From NCBI RefSeq assembly GCF_003334815.1, contig NZ_QOWO01000064.1: a stretch of DNA of 8,823 nt, one strand, 5' to 3'. Under the pieces are notes generated by a model. The model was not told the origin of the DNA, ran no database searches, and saw nothing but the letters and a program-made list of their open reading frames with translations. This stretch comes from Escherichia coli. Its GTDB lineage: Bacteria; Pseudomonadota; Gammaproteobacteria; Enterobacterales; Enterobacteriaceae. Positions 1 to 8,823 of the stretch are shown in pieces (within the stretch, counting starts at the first letter, position 1; each line of letters begins with the position of its first letter). Position numbers and translations under genes: made by a program.

Positions 1-46
1 AACGGTGAACAATATCACCCTGGGTAAGTATCCGGAGGCGAAATGA
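1..46 (+). CDS. 3' end of a CbtA/YeeV-family toxin gene (partial; 5' portion lies outside the window)
   Basis: The frame starting at nt 2 translates TVNNITLGKYPEAK followed by TGA at 44-46. This C-terminal tail matches what I recall for CbtA/YeeV/YkfI/YpjF-type toxins of E. coli CP4-type cryptic prophages. The stop overlaps the next start codon (ATGA at 43-46). Recognition is from memory of a 14-residue tail only. Confidence 0.5.
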   Translation, partial: TVNNITLGKYPEAK

Positions 47-534
47 TGAAACTGGCCCTGACACTGGAAGCCGACAGTGTTAACGTACAGGCACTGAATA
101 TGGGGCGAATTGTCGTTGACATTGATGGTGTTAATCTCGCTGAACTGATTAACATGGTCTGCGATAACGGCTACTCCCTTCGTGTTGTTGATGAATCTGA
201 CCGGACCTCAGCAGACTGCACGCCACCATTTGTTGCCCTTACCGGCATACGCTGCAGTACCGCACATATCACGGAAACGGACAACGCCTGGCTGTACTCG
301 CTGTCACACCAGACCAGTGACTTCGGTGAATCAGAATGGATTCATTTTACCGGTACCGGTTATCTGTTACGTACCGATGCGTGGTCATACCCGGTTCTGC
401 GGCTTAAGCGCCTGGGGCTGTCAAAAACGTTCCGTCGTCTGGTCGTCACACTCATCCGGCGTTATGGTGTCAGTCTCATTCATCTGGATGCCAGTGCCGG
501 ATATCTGCCGGGTTTACCCACTTTCGACTGGTAA
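43..534 (+). CDS. Hypothetical protein of the kind encoded immediately downstream of cbtA-family toxin genes (YeeW-like); family assignment uncertain
   Basis: 163-aa ORF in the six-frame track. Its ATG at 43 overlaps the toxin stop by 4 nt, which is typical of coupled prophage modules. The product looks like a normal mixed-composition protein and resembles proteins I recall downstream of cbtA paralogs. GC about 50-58% by hand count on two lines. Confidence 0.6.
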   Translation: MMKLALTLEADSVNVQALNMGRIVVDIDGVNLAELINMVCDNGYSLRVVDESDRTSADCTPPFVALTGIRCSTAHITETDNAWLYSLSHQTSDFGESEWIHFTGTGYLLRTDAWSYPVLRLKRLGLSKTFRRLVVTLIRRYGVSLIHLDASAGYLPGLPTFDW

Positions 535-550
535 TCCGGAAATTCACAAC

Positions 551-727
551 ATGAAATCATTAACCACGGAAACAGCGCTGGATATTCTGATTACGTGGCT
601 GCAGGACAATATCGACTGCGAATCGGGAATTATCTTCGACAACGATGAGGATAAAACAGGTTCGGCAGCACTGTTGCGCTGTATCGAACAGGCCAGGGAG
701 GGTATCCGTACCCTGCGCCAACAGTAA
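551..727 (+). CDS. Small DUF957-like protein (58 aa)
   Basis: ATG at 551, 16 nt after the preceding stop, translates MKSLTTETALDILITWLQDNIDCESGIIFDNDEDKTGSAALLRCIEQAREGIRTLRQQ and ends at TAA 725-727. It resembles the small DUF957 proteins I recall in CP4-type islands. The track ORF 182..727 is the same frame extended upstream into the 43..534 gene, and I treat that 5' part as spurious. No clear Shine-Dalgarno sequence. Confidence 0.55.
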   Translation: MKSLTTETALDILITWLQDNIDCESGIIFDNDEDKTGSAALLRCIEQAREGIRTLRQQ

Positions 728-778
728 CTTTTGCACCAGAACCAGTGAAGATCACTCACCCGATTTCACTTCCCTGAC

Positions 779-809
779 GTCAGCCTGAACACGGCTGGCG
801 TTTTCATTT
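779..809 (+). terminator. Candidate rho-independent terminator after the DUF957-like gene
   Basis: Stem 779-785 (GTCAGCC) pairs with 793-799 (GGCTGGC), giving 7 bp with one G-U pair, around a 7-nt loop. It is followed by the T-rich tail GTTTTCATTT at 800-809. Confidence 0.45.
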
Positions 810-826
810 ATAAACAGAAAGGAAAA

Positions 827-985
827 ATGATGATGTCAGATACCACACTCTCCCGCCCGGAGGTGGTCAGCGGGCATACGGACGTTATCTATTCCACCTC
901 AGTCTGCCACATTCTGGCTGTACGAAAGAGTACACTGTTGCCAATCGACACAATTATCCGGCATCAAGTAAGCGATATCAGTTAA
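827..985 (+). CDS. Candidate small ORF (52 aa), function unknown
   Basis: ATG at 827 is preceded by AAAGGA at 818-823, a reasonable Shine-Dalgarno spacing. It translates MMMSDTTLSRPEVVSGHTDVIYSTSVCHILAVRKSTLLPIDTIIRHQVSDIS and stops at TAA 983-985. It is absent from the supplied ORF track, presumably for being below the length cut-off, and I do not recognise the family. Confidence 0.25.
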   Translation: MMMSDTTLSRPEVVSGHTDVIYSTSVCHILAVRKSTLLPIDTIIRHQVSDIS

Positions 986-1151
986 CCGATATAGATGGGG
1001 AAGATGCTTTTATCCGGATTGGTTCTATCGCGATGGTGCGAGTACCACTTGATGCAATGGAGCCTGTCGAGGAAGATGACGAGTAACAGAGCTCGGTATC
1101 TCAATCAGGACCTGATTGTCCTGGTTCGATGCCGAAAACCAGTGATTTTTC

Positions 1152-1173
1152 GTGTTGGTATCTGTGTTGGTAT
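1152..1173. repeat. Tandem direct repeat of GTGTTGGTAT (two perfect copies, period 12), with a partial third copy GGTGTTG at 1179-1185
   Basis: Read directly from the sequence: GTGTTGGTAT at 1152-1161 and again at 1164-1173. It lies just upstream of the candidate promoter at 1193-1220. Confidence 0.6.
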
Positions 1174-1192
1174 AGGATGGTGTTGTTTATTA

Positions 1193-1220
1193 TTAACAAT
1201 TTTAAATCATGAGGTTAAAT
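1193..1220 (+). promoter_or_regulatory. Candidate sigma70-type promoter (-35 TTAACA, 16-nt spacer, -10 TTAAAT)
   Basis: TTAACA at 1193-1198 matches TTGACA at 5 of 6 positions and TTAAAT at 1215-1220 matches TATAAT at 4 of 6. Judged by eye only; the predicted start site is near 1227-1230. Confidence 0.2.
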
Positions 1221-1263
1221 CGCATGTTTGAGTCCGGTCTTCGCACCACATCGTATGCAAATC

Positions 1264-1288
1264 GAGTCGCTCAAGGGCGGCTTTTTTT
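1264..1288 (+). terminator. Candidate rho-independent terminator
   Basis: Stem GTCGC (1266-1270) pairs with GCGGC (1277-1281) around the loop TCAAGG, and is followed immediately by a run of seven T at 1282-1288. The stem is short at 5 bp, extendable by A-U and G-U pairs into the T-run. Confidence 0.4.
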
Positions 1289-1636
1289 GTACCTGTGTTT
1301 TCACTACTTTGTTTGCATGTAACGCTGATAATCTAAGAACTTCGGAAGCCCCATTTCCATCAATGATGTTCATTCATCATCCTGAAAATTAAGTAGATAT
1401 AAAACTTCATTGCCTTGGTCTAATGGCACAGAAATAGATTGCATTTGGCGAGTGGCATTCTTAGTGCGTCGTTGTTTAGTCATGAAACGATGCGTAAAAT
1501 TGCTGATTTTATGTGTCAAAGTCCCGCAACCGGAGATGGCCTTACTTCAATGATCAACCACTATTGACGTATCCTTTTAATATCTTGATTCAATTCAGCA
1601 GGTTATCGTCCAAAGTACAGCGAAGAGAGAGAAAAG

Positions 1637-4528
1637 ATGATTGGTACAACACCTTATCATGCGAAATATTTTGCGCATGAACTTTCCATTCTTCATTCAA
1701 ACAATGGGGTGGACCGTCTGTCTCAATCGCTGTTTGATGCAAGCGTAGATCTAAACCCTCATCAAATTGAGGCGGCTCTTTTTGCTATCGAAAATCCGCT
1801 AAGCAAAGGTGTTGTGCTTGCCGATGAAGTTGGTTTGGGTAAAACCATTGAAGCTGGACTAGTGCTTTGCCAGTTGTGGGCTGAAAGAAAACGTAAACTG
1901 TTGATCATTTGTCCTGCTTCACTGCGTCGCCAATGGGCGAGCGAGTTACAGGAAAAGTTCAATCTACCTTCTCAGGTGTTGGACGCGAAAATGTATAGCC
2001 AGCTTCAAAAAGAAGGGATCCATAATCCCTTAAATAATAAATCGATCACTATCATGTCATACCACTATGCTGCTCGGTTAGAAGAGAAATTGGTGGCTGA
2101 AATGTGGGATCTGGTTGTTATCGACGAAGCCCATAAACTGCGTAATGCTCATCGAGAAAGCAACAAAATGGGGCAAGCGTTAAAGCGTGCGCTTGATGGG
2201 CGGAAGAAATTACTACTGACCGCAACGCCTTTACAGAACTCGTTGATGGAACTGTATGGCATGTCGACGCTTATAGATGAACATACCTTCGGCGAAGTTA
2301 AAGCGTTCAGAAAGCAATATATGCAGGCAGATAGCGATATTGCGGAGTTGAAGGGGCGATTGTCGCGTTTTATCAAACGAACTCTACGCAAGAATGTGCT
2401 GGAGTATATCAAGTATACAGAACGTAAAGCGATCACTATTCCTTTCTATCCGAGCGAACAGGAGCAGGATCTTTATGAACGCGTACAAAAATTGCTTGAA
2501 CGTGAGGATAGCTATGCCTTACCAAAACGACACCGGCATCTGACGGGGCTTATACTCAGAAAACTACTTTCCTCAAGTACGAAAGCCGTATTGAATAACT
2601 TGCAGATCCTTAAGACTCGTTTAGAAAGGTTAAAGCTGGAAGGTATCGTTGAAGATGATATGGACATCATCCAACAGATCATAATGGATGATGATCTTGA
2701 AGATGACATCGTTGAAGATGCCGAATCAGTAGCGCCAGATACAGAGTGCAAATCTGTGGATTCAGATGCGCTTCAGGCAGAAATCAATGAGCTGGAATCA
2801 CTCATTGTTAAAGCAGAACAGATTGGCACTGATACCAAATCAAAAGAGTTGCTTTCTGGCCTGGAGCAAGGTTTTGCACAGCTTGCCGAAATGGGGGCTG
2901 CAAAAAAAGTCATCATCTTCACGGAGTCGATGCGAACTCAACAGTACCTTGCACATTTTCTGGAAAACAATGGCTACCAGGGAAAAGTAGTAACCTTTAG
3001 TGGCACAAACAATACACCGCAGGCAAACAAGATCTACCAGCAATGGCGCGAGGAATATCAGGGATCTTCTCGTATTACCGGGTCGGCGCAAATTGATAAA
3101 CGCTCGGCTTTGATCGACCACTTCAAAGATCATGCTGAAATCATGATAGCTACAGAAGCTGCAGCTGAAGGGGTGAACCTGCAATTTTGTTCGCTACTGA
3201 TCAATTACGATTTACCCTGGAACCCACAACGCATTGAGCAGCGTATTGGACGTTGTCACCGATACGGGCAAAAATTTGATGTGGTTGTTATTAACTTCCT
3301 CAATCAGCGAAACCAGGCCGATCAACGCGTTCTTGAACTCTTAACTGAAAAGTTCAGCCTGTTTGATGGCGTGTTTGGCGCATCGGATAGTGTGCTTGGC
3401 AGCATAGAAAATGGTGTGGATTTTGAAAAAAGGATCCAGTCAATTTATGAGTCATGCCGTACCCCCGAGGAGATAGAGCTGGCTTTTGAAAGGTTGCAGA
3501 AAGAGCTGGAAGATGAAATCAATCTCAAGATGCAGAAGACGCAAGAACAGTTGCTTGAGCATTTTGATGAAGATATTCACGATATCCTTAAAATAAGGCT
3601 TGATGAAGCTCGGGAGCGCCTGGATAAAGTCGGTCGTTGGTTTTGGGCCGTGACCTGTCAGCAGCTCAAACAATATGCTGATTTTGATCATGAGCATCAT
3701 CGTTTCACTTTACGTGAATCAGTCAATGAACTGCCTGTCGGGCAGTACCAGCTGTTGCGCAAAGATGGCAGGCAAAATAGTGCGTTACAAATGCAGGATC
3801 ACCACAGTTTTGCATATCGGATCAATCATCCACTGGGTGAGTACGTCATTGACGGAGCTAAAGCCCAGGAGACGAAAACAGCTGAAGTCATCTTCGATTA
3901 CAGTAACCACACAACGAAAGTTTCGGTGGCTGAGCAGCTGAAAGGGCAATCAGGATGGTTAACACTAAATTTGCTTACTGTTGATGCGTTTAACAGGCAG
4001 CAATTTTTAGTCTTTACCGCGAAAACTGACAACGGACGTGTGGTAGATGGTGAAGCTTGTAAACGTCTGTTCAACTTGTCTGCAATAACCAACGAAAAGC
4101 TGGATAATTCGGCAAGTTTAGATGCATTACCTGATGACTTGATCTTACTCAAGAACAGGCAAATTGACGCCAGGCTTGCAGAAGTTTTGGAGCAGAACAA
4201 TGTCCTTTTTGAAGCGGAAAGAGATAAGCTGGAAAAATGGGCTGAAGACATGATCTTTGCGGCGGAAGAAGCATTACGCGATACCAAAATGCAAATCAAG
4301 TCGTTGAAGCGAGAAGCCAGGCTGGCGCAATCGATCGAAGAACAAAAGCAAAACCAGGAAAAGCTTAAGCTCCTGGAACGGCAGCAGAAGCGCCAACGTA
4401 TGGAAATTTTTGACATTGAAGATGAGATCGCCGACAAGCGGGATGAACTCATCAGTGCCCTTGAAGAGCGGATGAAGCAAAAGACGGATATCACCGAGCT
4501 GTTTACCATCCGCTGGAAAGTTATTTAA
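1637..4528 (+). CDS. SNF2-family (DEAH-type superfamily 2) helicase/ATPase, 963 aa; candidate DrmD-like component
   Basis: Motifs are visible in the translation: Walker A GLGKT (nt 1832-1846), motif II DEAH (2123-2134), the SNF2-type motif III TATPLQN, and in the C-terminal lobe motif V IATEAAAEGVNLQ and motif VI QRIGRCHRYGQ (3239-3271). A purine-rich Shine-Dalgarno-like stretch (AGAGAGAGAAAAG) precedes the ATG. GC about 43-47% by hand count. Confidence 0.9.
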   Translation: MIGTTPYHAKYFAHELSILHSNNGVDRLSQSLFDASVDLNPHQIEAALFAIENPLSKGVVLADEVGLGKTIEAGLVLCQLWAERKRKLLIICPASLRRQWASELQEKFNLPSQVLDAKMYSQLQKEGIHNPLNNKSITIMSYHYAARLEEKLVAEMWDLVVIDEAHKLRNAHRESNKMGQALKRALDGRKKLLLTATPLQNSLMELYGMSTLIDEHTFGEVKAFRKQYMQADSDIAELKGRLSRFIKRTLRKNVLEYIKYTERKAITIPFYPSEQEQDLYERVQKLLEREDSYALPKRHRHLTGLILRKLLSSSTKAVLNNLQILKTRLERLKLEGIVEDDMDIIQQIIMDDDLEDDIVEDAESVAPDTECKSVDSDALQAEINELESLIVKAEQIGTDTKSKELLSGLEQGFAQLAEMGAAKKVIIFTESMRTQQYLAHFLENNGYQGKVVTFSGTNNTPQANKIYQQWREEYQGSSRITGSAQIDKRSALIDHFKDHAEIMIATEAAAEGVNLQFCSLLINYDLPWNPQRIEQRIGRCHRYGQKFDVVVINFLNQRNQADQRVLELLTEKFSLFDGVFGASDSVLGSIENGVDFEKRIQSIYESCRTPEEIELAFERLQKELEDEINLKMQKTQEQLLEHFDEDIHDILKIRLDEARERLDKVGRWFWAVTCQQLKQYADFDHEHHRFTLRESVNELPVGQYQLLRKDGRQNSALQMQDHHSFAYRINHPLGEYVIDGAKAQETKTAEVIFDYSNHTTKVSVAEQLKGQSGWLTLNLLTVDAFNRQQFLVFTAKTDNGRVVDGEACKRLFNLSAITNEKLDNSASLDALPDDLILLKNRQIDARLAEVLEQNNVLFEAERDKLEKWAEDMIFAAEEALRDTKMQIKSLKREARLAQSIEEQKQNQEKLKLLERQQKRQRMEIFDIEDEIADKRDELISALEERMKQKTDITELFTIRWKVI

Positions 4529-4548
4529 TTGATTTGAAAGAGAAAATA

Positions 4549-7500
4549 ATGAGTAAGTACAACGAATTAGTTAAGAAGCTAAAAGAAATTTTTCAGATTG
4601 ATCGACCAGAACTGGATTTCGGTATTTATCGTATTTTAAATGCGCGTGCTGATGAAATTAACGACTATCTGGATAATAAGCTGAAGGCCAAAATCCAGTC
4701 TGCGCTGGCGGATGCAGGAAATGCCAATAAATCAGAATTAGAACATCAGTTGCAACTGACAATAAAAGCGGCAACTGATGCGGGTGTAGACCCTGCTGAT
4801 AGCCCAAAAGTACAGGAGCTTAAAAAGCAACTGGCGGCTATGGCATCCGGAGCAAATGAGCATGAAAATGCAGTATTTTCCCATCTGCTCACTTTCTTTT
4901 CGCGTTATTATGACAACGGCGATTTTATCAGCAAACGCCGTTATAAAGGTAATACCTACGCCATCCCCTATTCTGGCGAAGAAGTGATGTTGCACTGGGC
5001 AAATAAGGACCAGTACTACATTAAAAGCGGTGAAAACTTCGCTAATTATTCGTTCAAATTAGAAGACGGTCGTAAAGTTAGCTTTAAATTGCTCGCAGCG
5101 GACACAGCAAAAGATAACCGTAAAGATAATGAATTAGATCGCTGCTTTGTACTTATTGAGCCACATGTTCGTACCAAAATTGATGAAGAAGGCGATGAGT
5201 ACGAACAAGAATATAAGCCAGTAGAAGTGGTGAAAAACTCATCTGTGGTGGACGGTAAACTCGTTGAAACAGAAGAGTTAGTTATTCACTTCGAATATAA
5301 GGCAATGAAAAAGGGCACTAAGCAGGATGCTTTAGTACAGTCCGCCATTTCAACAATTCTGGCAGATAAAACAGTTCAACAGCATTGGGTTGATCTTGCT
5401 AAACGTGCGCCAACAGAAAAGAATCCGTCACGTACAGAGTTGGAGCGTCACCTTACAACTTATACCCAGCGTAATACAGCAGACTACTTTATCCATAAAG
5501 ATCTCGGTGGTTTTTTAACGAACGAACTGGATTTTTATATTAAAAATGAAGTAATGAATCTCGATAATGTGCAAAATGCAGAAGTGTTTGCCAATGTTGA
5601 GAAACAATTGCGCATGATTCAATGTTTGCGTGCTGTTGCGCTGGAACTCATTACATTTTTGGCACAAATTGAGAATTTCCAGAAAAAACTTTGGACTAAG
5701 AAGAAGTTTGTTGTTGGGCATGAGTATCTTGTGTCACTTTCAAATCTATCAGATTCGCTTTACGATAAAATTCGAACTAATAAAGGGCAACATGATGAAT
5801 GGGTTGAGCTTTATGCTGTAAATAAAATTCCTGGATATTCATTTCCATTCACAAAAGATTTCTTGTATAAAAATAATGGTATGATATTGGATACAAAATA
5901 TTTTGATCCGTCATTTAAGGAGGTTTTTTTAACAGAGTTAACTAATGTTGACGATAATTTAGATGGTCTCTTAATTAATTCAGATAATTATCAGGCCATT
6001 AATTTTTTGGAGGGGCGGTATAAGGACTCAATAGACTGTCTTTATATTGATCCTCCGTATAATACTGCGGCTTCAGAAATTTTATATAAAAATGAATATA
6101 AGCACAGCAGCTGGAATTCATTAATGTATGAAAGGATATCTAAAAGCTATAATTTACTGAAAATTTCTGCAATTAATTTTACCGCGATAGATCATGCGGA
6201 ATTATATAATCTTGGTAAGATCAAGGATGAAATCTATGGAGAACAAAACAGGATAGCAGTTGTTACTGTTCAGCATAATCCTAAAGGGCGTAACCAGGCA
6301 AAGTTCTTTTCTGAAAATACTGAGTATATGTTAGTATATGCTAAAGATTTTAATGCTGCTAACTTTAACTCTGTAGCTATCGATGAGGATGTGCTTTTAA
6401 CATTCACAGAACAAGATAATATAGGCCGTTATCGTTGGGAAAACTTTATTCGTGCAAGAACAAGTTGGTCCAGAGCAAATAGACCAAATAACTGGTATCC
6501 TTTATACGTCTCTTCCGACTTAAAATCAATTTCTGTTGATTATGTAGATGGGTATATCGAAGTATATCCTACAACTAAACAGGGGGATTTTTCGTGGAAA
6601 AATATTAAAGAATCATTTGTTGAATTAAATAAAGATAATTATTTTAAAGCTGTAAATGAAAATGGAGAAATAAAAATCTATCATAAATATAGGGAGCAGC
6701 AAGTCTTTAAAAATCTTTGGATTGATAAGAAATATCAGTCTGAGTTTAATGGTACAAATTTACTGAAAAACATACTTGGACAATCACTATTTGATTATCC
6801 GAAATCATTATATGCAGTACAAGATGCAATCAAAATGTCGACACCACACAATGGTATTGTATTGGACTATTTTGCAGGTTCAGGGACAACTTCTCATGCA
6901 GTAATAAACCTTAATAATTCAGATAATCTCTGTATGAAATTTATCAATGTTGAAATGGGTACTCATTTCAATACAGTAGTTATTCCAAGATTGAAGAAAA
7001 TTGGATATTCAAACTTATGGAAACAATGTAAACCAATCGGTAAACCTCAAAAAATGACTATCAAGTATTTGAAACTTGAAAGTTATGAGGATGCTCTTAA
7101 TAATATACAATTACGAAGTTATTCATTGCATCAGGATATTTTCGACATTTTGGTGGAAGATGTAAAATCAGAGTTTGCTCTTAAATATATTTTTGAAAAT
7201 GAATTATTTTATTCACTATTAAATACTGATAATTTCAAAAAACCATTTAACTACGAAATGGATATTGCGACGGATTCCGCCGGTGCCACTGAGCGTAAAA
7301 ACATCGATTTAGTTGAAACTTTCAATTATCTCATTGGCTTACATGTGAAATCCATCGAATCTGATATCGCACGTGGCTATGTGCGTATTGAAGGAACGCT
7401 GCCAACAGGCGAGCGTACCCTTATTCTGTGGCGCGATTGCGACAAGATCGGTTATGAAGAATTGAATAAATATGCCAACCGATTTGATTTGTATGCAAAA

Positions 7501-7653
7501 GAAAACACGTTCGACGTTATCTACATCAATGGCGATCATAACTTACCTACCGCCTTTACCGTTGATGAAGAAGACGGCGAGATTGTTCGTAGCCTGAAAA
7601 TTCGCCAGATCGAACCTGAATTCTTGAACCTGATGTTTGCGGAGGAGGTTTAA
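4549..7653 (+). CDS. Beta-class DNA methyltransferase (N6-adenine/N4-cytosine type, Type III Mod-like catalytic core) with a ~420-aa N-terminal extension, 1034 aa; candidate DrmMI-like component
   Basis: Motif IV DPPY (CLYIDPPYN, nt 6049-6060) precedes motif I FxGxG (LDYFAGSGTT, nt 6865-6891) by about 270 residues, which is the beta-class order with room for a target-recognition domain between them. I place the start at ATG 4549, preceded by AAAGAG; the track starts at an in-frame TTG at 4534, which remains a possible alternative. Only 20 nt separate it from the upstream stop. Confidence 0.88.
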   Translation: MSKYNELVKKLKEIFQIDRPELDFGIYRILNARADEINDYLDNKLKAKIQSALADAGNANKSELEHQLQLTIKAATDAGVDPADSPKVQELKKQLAAMASGANEHENAVFSHLLTFFSRYYDNGDFISKRRYKGNTYAIPYSGEEVMLHWANKDQYYIKSGENFANYSFKLEDGRKVSFKLLAADTAKDNRKDNELDRCFVLIEPHVRTKIDEEGDEYEQEYKPVEVVKNSSVVDGKLVETEELVIHFEYKAMKKGTKQDALVQSAISTILADKTVQQHWVDLAKRAPTEKNPSRTELERHLTTYTQRNTADYFIHKDLGGFLTNELDFYIKNEVMNLDNVQNAEVFANVEKQLRMIQCLRAVALELITFLAQIENFQKKLWTKKKFVVGHEYLVSLSNLSDSLYDKIRTNKGQHDEWVELYAVNKIPGYSFPFTKDFLYKNNGMILDTKYFDPSFKEVFLTELTNVDDNLDGLLINSDNYQAINFLEGRYKDSIDCLYIDPPYNTAASEILYKNEYKHSSWNSLMYERISKSYNLLKISAINFTAIDHAELYNLGKIKDEIYGEQNRIAVVTVQHNPKGRNQAKFFSENTEYMLVYAKDFNAANFNSVAIDEDVLLTFTEQDNIGRYRWENFIRARTSWSRANRPNNWYPLYVSSDLKSISVDYVDGYIEVYPTTKQGDFSWKNIKESFVELNKDNYFKAVNENGEIKIYHKYREQQVFKNLWIDKKYQSEFNGTNLLKNILGQSLFDYPKSLYAVQDAIKMSTPHNGIVLDYFAGSGTTSHAVINLNNSDNLCMKFINVEMGTHFNTVVIPRLKKIGYSNLWKQCKPIGKPQKMTIKYLKLESYEDALNNIQLRSYSLHQDIFDILVEDVKSEFALKYIFENELFYSLLNTDNFKKPFNYEMDIATDSAGATERKNIDLVETFNYLIGLHVKSIESDIARGYVRIEGTLPTGERTLILWRDCDKIGYEELNKYANRFDLYAKENTFDVIYINGDHNLPTAFTVDEEDGEIVRSLKIRQIEPEFLNLMFAEEV
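7641..7648 (+). promoter_or_regulatory. Shine-Dalgarno sequence GGAGGAGG for the third gene, embedded in the last codons of the methyltransferase gene
   Basis: GGAGGAGG lies 7 nt upstream of ATG 7656. The methyltransferase stop (7651-7653) and the next start are 2 nt apart, which suggests translational coupling. Confidence 0.6.
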
Positions 7654-7655
7654 GA

Positions 7656-8669
7656 ATGGCTAAAAAACCGACCACCGGTAAAGCAGTTAAAAAAGAGACT
7701 AACAGCAAGCTGAGCTTTCATAAACAACTGGTTTTAAACCGCTTTATGTTCCATTTTTTCAAAGATGGCACATTGCAAGGTTTGAAGAATCGGTTAGGCG
7801 AGGATCGCTTTGAAGGCATCCATGAAGATGGCCAAAGCTTGTTCTTCCATGAGCTGAGTAACTATTTATTCGAGGTCGATCTAATCGATCTCGATGAACT
7901 GCGTCGTTACGATCTCAATATCGTGCAGCACTGGCAGCAGATAACCGAGCACCGTAATCGTAAAGAAGACACTGTGCTGAACATGAAATATTTTCAGTAC
8001 TTGTCGCTTCTGTTTACCGAGATCTACCTGGACTGGTACTTCAATCGTAAACAGCAATTACTCGATGGGCTAAATAACGAGCTGGCAGCATACAATGCTG
8101 AAAATGATAAAACAGCAAAAGACCGGGCTAATCAGTTCAAATCATATGTTCTGGATGATTTGAATAAATTGGCATACTGGAACGCTACTGGTTCTGGTAA
8201 GACACTGCTATTACATGTCAATATTTTGCAATATTTACATTATTTCCAGAACGGTAATAGCCATCATTATCCGGATAAAATCATCCTGCTTACGCCGGAT
8301 GAACGCCTGTCGAAGCAACATTTAGATGAACTGGAAAACTCAGGGTTTACCCAATACCAGTTGTTCGATAAGAGTAAATCAGCGCCCTTCAAAGGCACGA
8401 TTGAAGTCATTGATATCAATAAACTTGATGATAAAATGGGCGACAAAACTGTTGCCGTTGAGGCATTTGAAGGCAACAATCTGGTCCTGATTGATGAAGG
8501 GCATAAAGGCACAGGAAGTGCTGCTGGTGCCTGGATGCGCCGTCGTGACAAGTTAACTCGTGACGGATTTGCGTTTGAATATTCAGCAACTTTTGGCCAG
8601 GCAGTAGCCGGTGGCAATAATGTGGAGGCAGTTGAAACAGAAATTCAGAAGAAAAAAGCAAAGCTCTGA
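7656..8669 (+). CDS. Helicase-like ATPase containing only the first RecA-like lobe (Type III Res-like / DrmA-like N-terminal region), 337 aa; probably truncated or disrupted
   Basis: Walker A ATGSGKT (nt 8184-8204; GSGKT at 8190-8204), motif II LIDEGH (DEGH at 8493-8504) and a motif III-like SAT (8583-8591) are present. The ORF stops at 8667-8669 with no motifs IV-VI and no arginine-finger region. The following 8670-8732 has stops in all three forward frames. Confidence 0.75.
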   Translation: MAKKPTTGKAVKKETNSKLSFHKQLVLNRFMFHFFKDGTLQGLKNRLGEDRFEGIHEDGQSLFFHELSNYLFEVDLIDLDELRRYDLNIVQHWQQITEHRNRKEDTVLNMKYFQYLSLLFTEIYLDWYFNRKQQLLDGLNNELAAYNAENDKTAKDRANQFKSYVLDDLNKLAYWNATGSGKTLLLHVNILQYLHYFQNGNSHHYPDKIILLTPDERLSKQHLDELENSGFTQYQLFDKSKSAPFKGTIEVIDINKLDDKMGDKTVAVEAFEGNNLVLIDEGHKGTGSAAGAWMRRRDKLTRDGFAFEYSATFGQAVAGGNNVEAVETEIQKKKAKL

Positions 8670-8823
8670 GAGATCCCCTCATAATTTCCCCAAAGCGTAA
8701 CCATGTGTGAATAAATTTTGAGCTAGTAGGGTTGCAGCCACGAGTAAGTCTTCCCTTGTTATTGTGTAGCCAGAATGCCGCAAAACTTCCATGCCTAAGC
8801 GAACTGTTGAGAGTACGTTTCGA

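What the first reader, a model, noticed from the sequence alone, without database searches (positions are those of the whole stretch)
7656..8823. Third gene encodes only half a helicase and ends abruptly
The 337-aa ORF carries helicase motifs I (GSGKT), II (DEGH) and III (SAT), which make up the first RecA-like lobe, and then terminates. There are no motifs IV-VI, and all three forward frames hit stops within about 40 nt after 8669. In Type III Res and DISARM DrmA-type proteins the ATPase needs both lobes. This implies a 3' truncation by insertion, deletion or rearrangement, with the junction near 8650-8705, or a split gene whose second half lies elsewhere. If it is truncated, the operon retains an intact methyltransferase and SNF2 helicase but an incomplete third component, which is a common state for decaying restriction-type systems and may alter the system's activity.
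Basis: partly seen in the sequence, partly recalled or inferred. Interest (0 to 1): 0.6.

Follow-up and report, generated by a model that had tools for sequence, protein, structure and literature searches.

The report
IS10 insertion truncates restriction helicase gene
The "half helicase" is the first 336 codons of a 1126-codon Type III-like restriction-subunit gene of E. coli that has been cut by an IS10 insertion sequence, which is an ordinary way for bacteria to lose a restriction enzyme.

Summary
The ORF at 7656-8669 encodes 337 aa with GSGKT, DEGH and SAT, then stops. The cause is now precise. Window 1-8665 is 99.98% identical, without gaps, to an E. coli locus where the gene runs on to 1126 aa. 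Window 8666-8823 is 158/158 identical to the transposase-distal end of the 1329-bp insertion sequence IS10 (annotated ISVsa5, IS4 family). The stop codon TGA (8667-8669) lies inside the IS terminus. The flanking 9-mer AGCAAAGCT fits the IS10 target consensus. The same junction occurs in at least five independent public contigs, so it is a real circulating allele. Every close homologue is 1125-1126 aa, and distant relatives are about 1020-1130 aa. The lost 789 aa carry the second RecA lobe (motifs V and VI) and a C-terminal PD-(D/E)xK nuclease. The gene pairs with an upstream PF01555 methyltransferase and matches PADLOC Type III Mod and Res models. The upstream DrmD-like SNF2 gene is an accessory. 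Both upstream genes are intact. The predicted state is restriction-minus, modification-plus. The far IS junction lies outside the window and was not found, so a simple insertion cannot be distinguished from an IS-mediated rearrangement. This is an ordinary finding of low novelty.

The parts
1637..4528 (+). Gene 1: a 963-aa SNF2-family helicase, DrmD-like, intact.
   Evidence: Best NCBIfam hit is DISARM_DrmD_b at 667 bits, below the 950 cutoff. PADLOC DrmD PDLC02619 gives 662 bits. Pfam domains are SNF2-rel_dom and Helicase_C. It differs from WP_000580532.1 of strain SCU-172 only by two synonymous SNPs, at 2053 and 3859.
4549..7653 (+). Gene 2: a 1034-aa PF01555 (N6_N4_Mtase) Type III-like Mod methyltransferase, intact. 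The annotated ATG start is at 4549. The mechanical ORF starts at TTG 4534.
   Evidence: PADLOC MTase_III PDLC03646 matches end to end at 1551 bits. Pfam domain is PF01555. The DNA is identical to the SCU-172 gene WP_001570878.1.
7656..8665 (+). The native 5' part of the res gene (codons 1-336 plus two bases of codon 337). It encodes the N-terminal helical domain and RecA lobe 1 (motifs I, II, III).
   Evidence: It is 100% identical to nt 1-1010 of the 3381-nt gene for WP_001085530.1, which is 1126 aa. The full-length protein matches PADLOC REase_III PDLC03654 at 2306 bits.
8657..8665 (.). The putative IS10 target 9-mer, AGCAAAGCT. It would be duplicated at the far junction if this is a simple insertion.
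   Evidence: It lies directly next to the IS end. It matches NGCTNAGCN at 5 of 6 specified positions and fits NPuCNNNGPyN fully (consensus sequences from PMC4574204). The reference IS10 copy in K-12 J53 has the 9-bp duplication CGCTAAGCT.
8666..8823 (-). The transposase-distal ('inside') end of IS10/ISVsa5, which runs off the window. The terminal CTGAGAGATCCCC supplies the last base of codon 337 and the TGA stop (8667-8669) of the truncated ORF.
   Evidence: It is 158/158 identical to the first 158 nt of the 1329-bp element at L009 1806-3134. The element there is annotated as an IS4-like element ISVsa5 family transposase.
8679..8823 (-). The 3' end of the IS10 transposase gene (last 47 codons plus stop). 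It reads towards the res fragment.
   Evidence: Its translation equals the C-terminus of the 402-aa transposase WP_001339197.1 of K-12 J53.

Best explanation
An IS10 (ISVsa5, IS4 family) element transposed into codon 337 of the res gene of a three-gene SNF2 - Mod - Res locus. This locus is a Type III-like restriction-modification system. It sits on the E. coli chromosomal island next to nanC-fim. The insertion lies between window 8665 and 8666, at a target (AGCAAAGCT) that fits the IS10 consensus. The IS terminus provides an immediate TGA. The product is therefore residues 1-336 plus one Leu, comprising an N-terminal helical domain and RecA lobe 1 only. It lacks RecA lobe 2, including the motif VI arginines that complete the ATP site. 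It also lacks the linker domains and the C-terminal PD-(D/E)xK nuclease. It can neither hydrolyse ATP productively nor cut DNA, so restriction is lost. The SNF2 and methyltransferase genes lie upstream of the insertion and are unchanged, so methylation should persist (R- M+). Shown: the identity of both sequences at the junction, the full length and domain content of the orthologue, the integrity of the upstream genes, and the recurrence of the allele. Inferred: loss of function, continued methylation, and that the event was a simple insertion.
Against: The far end of the IS and the 3' part of res are outside the window. Four predicted right-junction products and a metagenome DNA scan found nothing. 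The left junction is equally absent from that metagenome collection, so the scan is uninformative. No complete RefSeq E. coli genome holds the junction. A target duplication, and therefore a simple insertion, is not demonstrated. Loss of restriction and persistence of methylation are inferred, not measured. The restriction activity of this family has not, to my knowledge, been shown experimentally.
Confidence: 0.85

Rival explanations
1. The IS10 marks an IS-mediated deletion, inversion or recombination between two IS10 copies, not a simple insertion. In that case the 3' 2.4 kb of res is missing or lies elsewhere in the source genome.
For: None of the four predicted right-junction gene products is on record. 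Other lineages carry IS-flanked 5' deletions of the same locus, with breakpoints at res nt 1148 and 1181. About 25 complete genomes hold only fragments of the gene.
Against: The look-ups need an exact product and an exact contig start, so they miss easily. The left flank fits the IS10 target consensus, as expected for a primary transposition. Simple insertion is the commonest outcome of IS10 movement (general knowledge). The functional result for res would be the same either way.
Confidence: 0.12
2. The junction is an artefact: either an assembly mis-join at a repeat, or an IS10 hop during cloning in a laboratory E. coli host.
For: IS10 is a known contaminant of clones propagated in Tn10-derived laboratory strains (PMC2758499 and PMC4574204). 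The window ends inside the repeat.
Against: The identical junction occurs in at least five contigs from different projects and assemblers (NCBI, Logan and ENA). It joins the exact IS terminus to a consensus-like target, which a random mis-join would not do.
Confidence: 0.02
3. The 337-aa protein is a genuine single-lobe ATPase, or the first half of a naturally split gene.
For: RefSeq lists it as an ordinary protein, WP_250113340.1.
Against: All close homologues are 1125-1126 aa and distant ones are about 1020-1130 aa. Intact loci have one continuous gene. The stop codon lies inside IS10 sequence.
Confidence: 0.01

Closest known systems
Insertional inactivation of a gene by IS10 (the IS of Tn10; IS4 family; annotated ISVsa5 by NCBI)
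   Same: The terminal sequence is identical. The reference element is 1329 bp with a 9-bp duplication. The target fits NGCTNAGCN / NPuCNNNGPyN. The transposase gene reads from the outside end towards the end seen here.
   Different: Only 158 nt of the element are in the window. Completeness of the element and the target duplication were not seen.
Type III restriction-modification systems (EcoP15I, EcoP1I, StyLTI): a Mod plus Res pair
   Different: There is no detectable sequence similarity to EcoP15I Res or any other solved structure, and no NCBIfam model. Both subunits are larger (1034 and 1126 aa). The N-terminal 165-aa helical domain and the long region between motor and nuclease are family-specific. 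In Enterobacterales there is an extra SNF2 gene. Activity and recognition site have not been characterised.
DISARM class 1 and ARMADA (a DrmD/ArmA SNF2 helicase, an adenine methyltransferase and a helicase-nuclease)
   Same: A three-part layout of SNF2-like helicase, methyltransferase and large helicase with a nuclease, on a mobile island. Gene 1 is most similar to DrmD models. ARMADA II lies on E. coli tRNA-associated islands (10.1101/2025.09.22.677730; PMC12458937).
   Different: The third protein is not YprA/DrmA-like: it has no DUF1998 and there is no DrmB or DrmC. The methyltransferase is PF01555 Type III-like, not PglX/YeeA-like. There is no ArmD. The DrmD hit is below the NCBIfam cutoff (667 versus 950). 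SNF2 is absent from two of the three distant loci examined.

Membership tests
IS10 / ISVsa5 (IS4 family) insertion | The terminal sequence is identical to that of bona fide copies. | tested here: met
   158/158 nt are identical to the annotated copy in K-12 J53. There are more than 4800 matching places across 1027 genomes.
IS10 / ISVsa5 (IS4 family) insertion | A complete 1329-bp element with both imperfect terminal repeats and a DDE transposase gene. | not testable with these tools
   Only the first 158 nt, including the last 47 transposase codons, lie in the window. The reference copy has all these features.
IS10 / ISVsa5 (IS4 family) insertion | A 9-bp target-site duplication at a consensus-like target. 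| tested here: inconclusive
   The left-flank 9-mer AGCAAAGCT fits the consensus. The right junction was not found.
Type III R-M Res subunit | An SF2 helicase core with two RecA-like lobes and motifs I-VI. | tested here: met
   Met for the full-length orthologue. The window copy retains lobe 1 only.
Type III R-M Res subunit | A C-terminal PD-(D/E)xK endonuclease domain. | tested here: met
Type III R-M Res subunit | Encoded directly downstream of a beta-class (PF01555) Mod methyltransferase. | tested here: met
   There is a 2-nt gap between mod and res in the window. The same arrangement holds in L014, L015 and L016.
Type III R-M Res subunit | Sequence homology to prototype Res proteins (EcoP15I, EcoP1I). 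| tested here: not met
   No PDB hit with either the single sequence or the profile. Only Pfam ResIII over lobe 1. The match to the REBASE-derived PADLOC model is to its own subfamily.
Type III R-M Res subunit | ATP-dependent cleavage that needs Mod and two inversely oriented unmethylated sites. | not testable with these tools
   This needs biochemistry.
DISARM | A core DrmA helicase plus a DrmB (DUF1998) protein, usually with a DrmC PLD nuclease. | tested here: not met
   No DrmA or DrmB hit for gene 3, and no DUF1998. The intact locus has no further system genes downstream.
ARMADA | A YprA-family helicase with OB-CON-DUF1998 and a Vsr nuclease, a PglX-like methyltransferase, and (in type II) a GajB-like ArmD. 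| tested here: not met
   Definitions are from PMC12458937. Gene 3 lacks DUF1998, the methyltransferase is PF01555, and there is no fourth gene.

The most novel reading that the evidence does not exclude
The short res segment around codons 337-344 may be a real multi-element insertion hotspot. IS10, IS1 and ISKpn26 are each found there within 20 bp in different samples, at a perfect 8-bp palindrome flanked by A and T runs. Alternatively, or in addition, loss of Res may be positively selected in this SNF2-associated Type III-like system. The system belongs to a large family (about 2500 cluster representatives) with no solved structure, no curated model and no published characterisation.
Probability: 0.2. 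Interest if true: 0.35.

Novelty: already known. Interest (0 to 1): 0.12.

Why it matters
The main value is for annotation and phenotype prediction. The 337-aa ORF is a pseudogene fragment, although RefSeq lists it as a normal protein (WP_250113340.1). Strains carrying it should be scored as restriction-deficient but still methylating for this system. That affects predictions of phage and plasmid susceptibility and the interpretation of methylomes. It is also a clean example showing that an ORF which ends abruptly beside a contig end in a draft assembly is often an IS junction. The underlying SNF2-Mod-Res system is poorly characterised and may deserve study in its own right, but the truncation itself is routine.

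Tried and rejected
1. I searched for the far IS10 junction. Four exact-product look-ups found nothing: the ATG fusion ORFs of 804 and 811 aa, and edge-truncated products for 21- and 30-nt overlaps. An exact DNA scan of metagenome contigs also found nothing. Control scans for the left junction in metagenome contigs and genome contigs were empty too, so these negatives say nothing.

2. The look-up of the 780-aa remnant found other alleles (IS1, ISKpn26), not the IS10 allele.

3. The junction is absent from 5426 complete E. coli genomes.

4. The apparent split methyltransferase in L007 is caused by two N bases, not a mutation.

5. DISARM and ARMADA membership were considered and rejected.

6. PDB sequence searches with the single protein and with the profile gave no relatives. 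NCBIfam has no model for the full-length protein.

7. A literature search by protein accessions gave nothing.

8. A promoter and terminator scan of 700-1700 gave counts no better than shuffled sequence.

Full report
**Observation.** The ORF at 7656-8669 on the + strand encodes 337 aa. It has GSGKT at residue 179, DEGH at 280 and SAT at 310. Downstream of 8669 the three forward frames meet stops at 8682, 8698 and 8708. These three motifs fall on invariant columns of a 47-member family alignment.

**Where similarity ends.** The ORF matches a gene annotated 'DEAD/DEAH box helicase family protein' in 170 complete E. coli genomes. Every alignment stops at window 8665. In strain SCU-172 (NZ_CP054353.1) that gene is 3381 nt and encodes 1126 aa (WP_001085530.1). 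It follows an SNF2 gene and a DNA methyltransferase gene, in the same order and spacing as in the window. Window 1-8665 aligns to that locus with two mismatches and no gaps. Both mismatches are synonymous changes in the SNF2 gene. The two upstream proteins are therefore unchanged.

**What follows the break.**
- From 8666 to the window end, the sequence is 158/158 identical to one end of a 1329-bp element in E. coli K-12 J53. That element carries an 'IS4-like element ISVsa5 family transposase' and is flanked by a 9-bp duplication, CGCTAAGCT.
- Its ends read CTGAGAGATCCCC... and CTGATGAATCCCC.... With its length and 9-bp duplication, this identifies it as IS10 (my own knowledge of IS10; the 9-bp duplication and target consensus are cited in PMC4574204).
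- The same 158 nt occur at more than 4800 places in 1027 of 5426 complete E. coli genomes.
- The end present in the window is the one nearest the transposase stop codon. Window 8679-8823 on the minus strand encodes the last 47 residues of the transposase.
- Codon 337 (CTC, Leu) is made of two native bases plus the first IS base. The TGA stop at 8667-8669 lies within the IS terminus cTGAgag.
- The 9 bases next to the IS, AGCAAAGCT (8657-8665), match the classical IS10 target NGCTNAGCN at five of six specified positions. They match the relaxed consensus NPuCNNNGPyN completely. By my own estimate, such matches have chance probabilities of about 0.005 and 0.016.

**Is it real?**
- No complete RefSeq E. 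coli genome has the junction. The exact 337-aa product is nevertheless on record as WP_250113340.1 / OWD67848.1 / CAM9430888.1.
- The identical res-IS10 junction is present in five contigs from different sources: L002 (GCA_002190155.1), L003 (seen in four runs), L004, L007 and L008.
- All of these contigs end 16-121 nt into the IS. That is what short-read assemblies do at repeats, and it probably explains why the window itself stops there.
- Two metagenome contigs (L005, L006) instead end 2-3 nt past the site and carry the bases of the intact allele. They are not evidence for the insertion.
- An assembly or cloning artefact is therefore very unlikely.

**What was lost.**
- The 120 closest homologues, from Shigella, Salmonella, Yersinia, Serratia, Enterobacter and others, are all 1125-1126 aa and cover the whole query.
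- An exhaustive search found 2489 cluster representatives, typically 1020-1130 aa.
- The region missing from the window contains several invariant residues. G603, K606, F607, G610, W611 and R615 lie in LIGSRKFTEGWSSWRV, a motif V-like block. Q634, F636, G637, R638, G639, V640 and R641 form QLFGRGVR, which is motif VI. Near the C-terminus are E975, R1004-N1005, P1023-D1024-F1025 and D1043-P1044-(K)-G1046.
- The window product thus keeps an N-terminal helical domain and RecA lobe 1. It loses lobe 2, the connecting domains and the nuclease.
- In SF2 enzymes the ATP site is completed by motif VI arginines from lobe 2 (established knowledge). The fragment should therefore be inactive both as a motor and as a nuclease. 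This is an inference.

**What system it belongs to.**
- PADLOC models built from REBASE classes match the methyltransferase (MTase_III PDLC03646, 1551 bits) and the full-length third protein (REase_III PDLC03654, 2306 bits) from end to end. Several sources name homologues 'type III restriction endonuclease subunit R'.
- A PF01555 methyltransferase gene lies directly upstream of the helicase-nuclease gene in three distant loci (L014-L016). An SNF2 gene is present in only one of them, and there it lies downstream. The core is a Mod-Res pair, and the DrmD-like SNF2 (667 bits against a 950 cutoff) is an accessory in some lineages.
- The family has no detectable sequence relative among solved structures, no NCBIfam model and no paper citing its accessions. 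I therefore call it Type III-like and do not claim it is a proven Type III enzyme.
- DISARM and ARMADA share the layout of SNF2, methyltransferase and helicase-nuclease. Their defining YprA/DUF1998 helicase and PglX-like methylase are absent here.

**What remains open.** The other IS end and the 3' part of res are beyond the window. I reconstructed the expected simple-insertion allele. I then searched for four predicted right-junction products and for the junction DNA itself, without success. The left junction is absent from the same DNA collections, so these negatives are uninformative. A simple insertion is most likely. An IS10-mediated deletion or inversion cannot be excluded. Either way the consequence for res is the same.

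**Context: this gene is often broken.**
- Of 190 complete genomes with any part of the gene, 165 have at least 80% of it in one place. About 25 have only fragments.
- Independent lesions seen here are listed below.
  - IS1 at res nt 3115 in strain E1654.
  - IS1 at native position 8675/8676 in L011, and ISKpn26 at 8684/8685 in L010.
  - A nonsense point mutation in L017 and two frameshifts in L022.
  - IS-flanked 5' deletions with breakpoints at res nt 1148 and 1181.
- Three different IS elements within 20 nt is striking. The intact allele has a perfect 8-bp inverted repeat at that spot. However, my look-up could only detect lesions between codons 323 and 347, so a hotspot is not established.

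**Verdict.** The explanation is an ordinary IS10 insertion that pseudogenises the restriction subunit of a Type III-like R-M locus and leaves the methyltransferase and SNF2 genes intact. Novelty is low.

Noticed in passing
L010:1-60, L011:1-40 and window 8657-8690: In other samples the same gene is interrupted by an IS1 end at native position 8675/8676 (L011) and by an ISKpn26 (IS5-family) end at 8684/8685, next to TTAG (L010). Three different IS elements therefore lie within 20 nt of each other. The look-up could only see lesions between codons 323 and 347, so a hotspot is not proven.
   Followed up: partly
L001:14998-15017 (equivalent to window 8653-8672 in the intact allele): There is a perfect 8-bp inverted repeat, AAAAAGCA / TGCTTTTT, with a 4-nt spacer, flanked by A and T runs, exactly at the IS10 insertion point. 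Bent or palindromic DNA may favour insertion there.
   Followed up: partly
L012, L017, L018-L023: The res gene carries other independent lesions in E. coli: IS1 at res nt 3115 (strain E1654), a single-base nonsense mutation (L017), two frameshifts (L022), and IS-flanked deletions of SNF2, mod and the 5' part of res, with breakpoints at res nt 1148 and 1181. The 707-aa remnant is listed in 155 index blocks.
   Followed up: partly
window 7656-8669: The truncated product is in RefSeq as WP_250113340.1, named 'DEAD/DEAH box helicase family protein', and is not flagged as a pseudogene. This is an annotation pitfall.
   Followed up: no
L005 and L006 (last 3 nt): Two metagenome contigs end 2-3 nt past the insertion site and carry the bases of the intact allele. 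This suggests an assembly-graph branch there, with both alleles present in those samples.
   Followed up: no
beyond window 8823 (reconstruction): If this is a simple insertion, the IS10 outside end would place in-frame ATG codons ahead of res codon 335, giving 804- or 811-aa fusion ORFs that contain lobe 2 and the nuclease. These would lie downstream of IS10's outward-facing promoter. No such product is on record.
   Followed up: partly
L014, L015, L016: The SNF2 gene is not a constant partner of the Mod-Res pair. It is absent within about 9 kb in two distant loci. In a third it lies downstream, split into two ORFs. L015 also carries McrBC fragments nearby.
   Followed up: partly
window 1-1636: Upstream of the operon are the ends of CP4-type island genes (DUF5983, DUF957) and about 900 nt without a convincing ORF. 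In SCU-172 this stretch is annotated as two pseudogene fragments, one of them an HTH regulator. The whole locus sits between that island and nanC-fimB. Promoter-like matches there do not exceed the number in shuffled sequence.
   Followed up: partly
window 4534-4549: The mechanical ORF for the methyltransferase starts at TTG 4534 (1039 aa). RefSeq and the public gene calls start at ATG 4549 (1034 aa).
   Followed up: no
full-length orthologue (L001:14001-17381): This is a large family (2489 representatives at 50% clustering) with no sequence relative in the PDB and no NCBIfam model. Pfam coverage extends only over RecA lobe 1. In some members the C-terminal catalytic block reads (D/E)-P-H rather than D-P-K.
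   Followed up: partly
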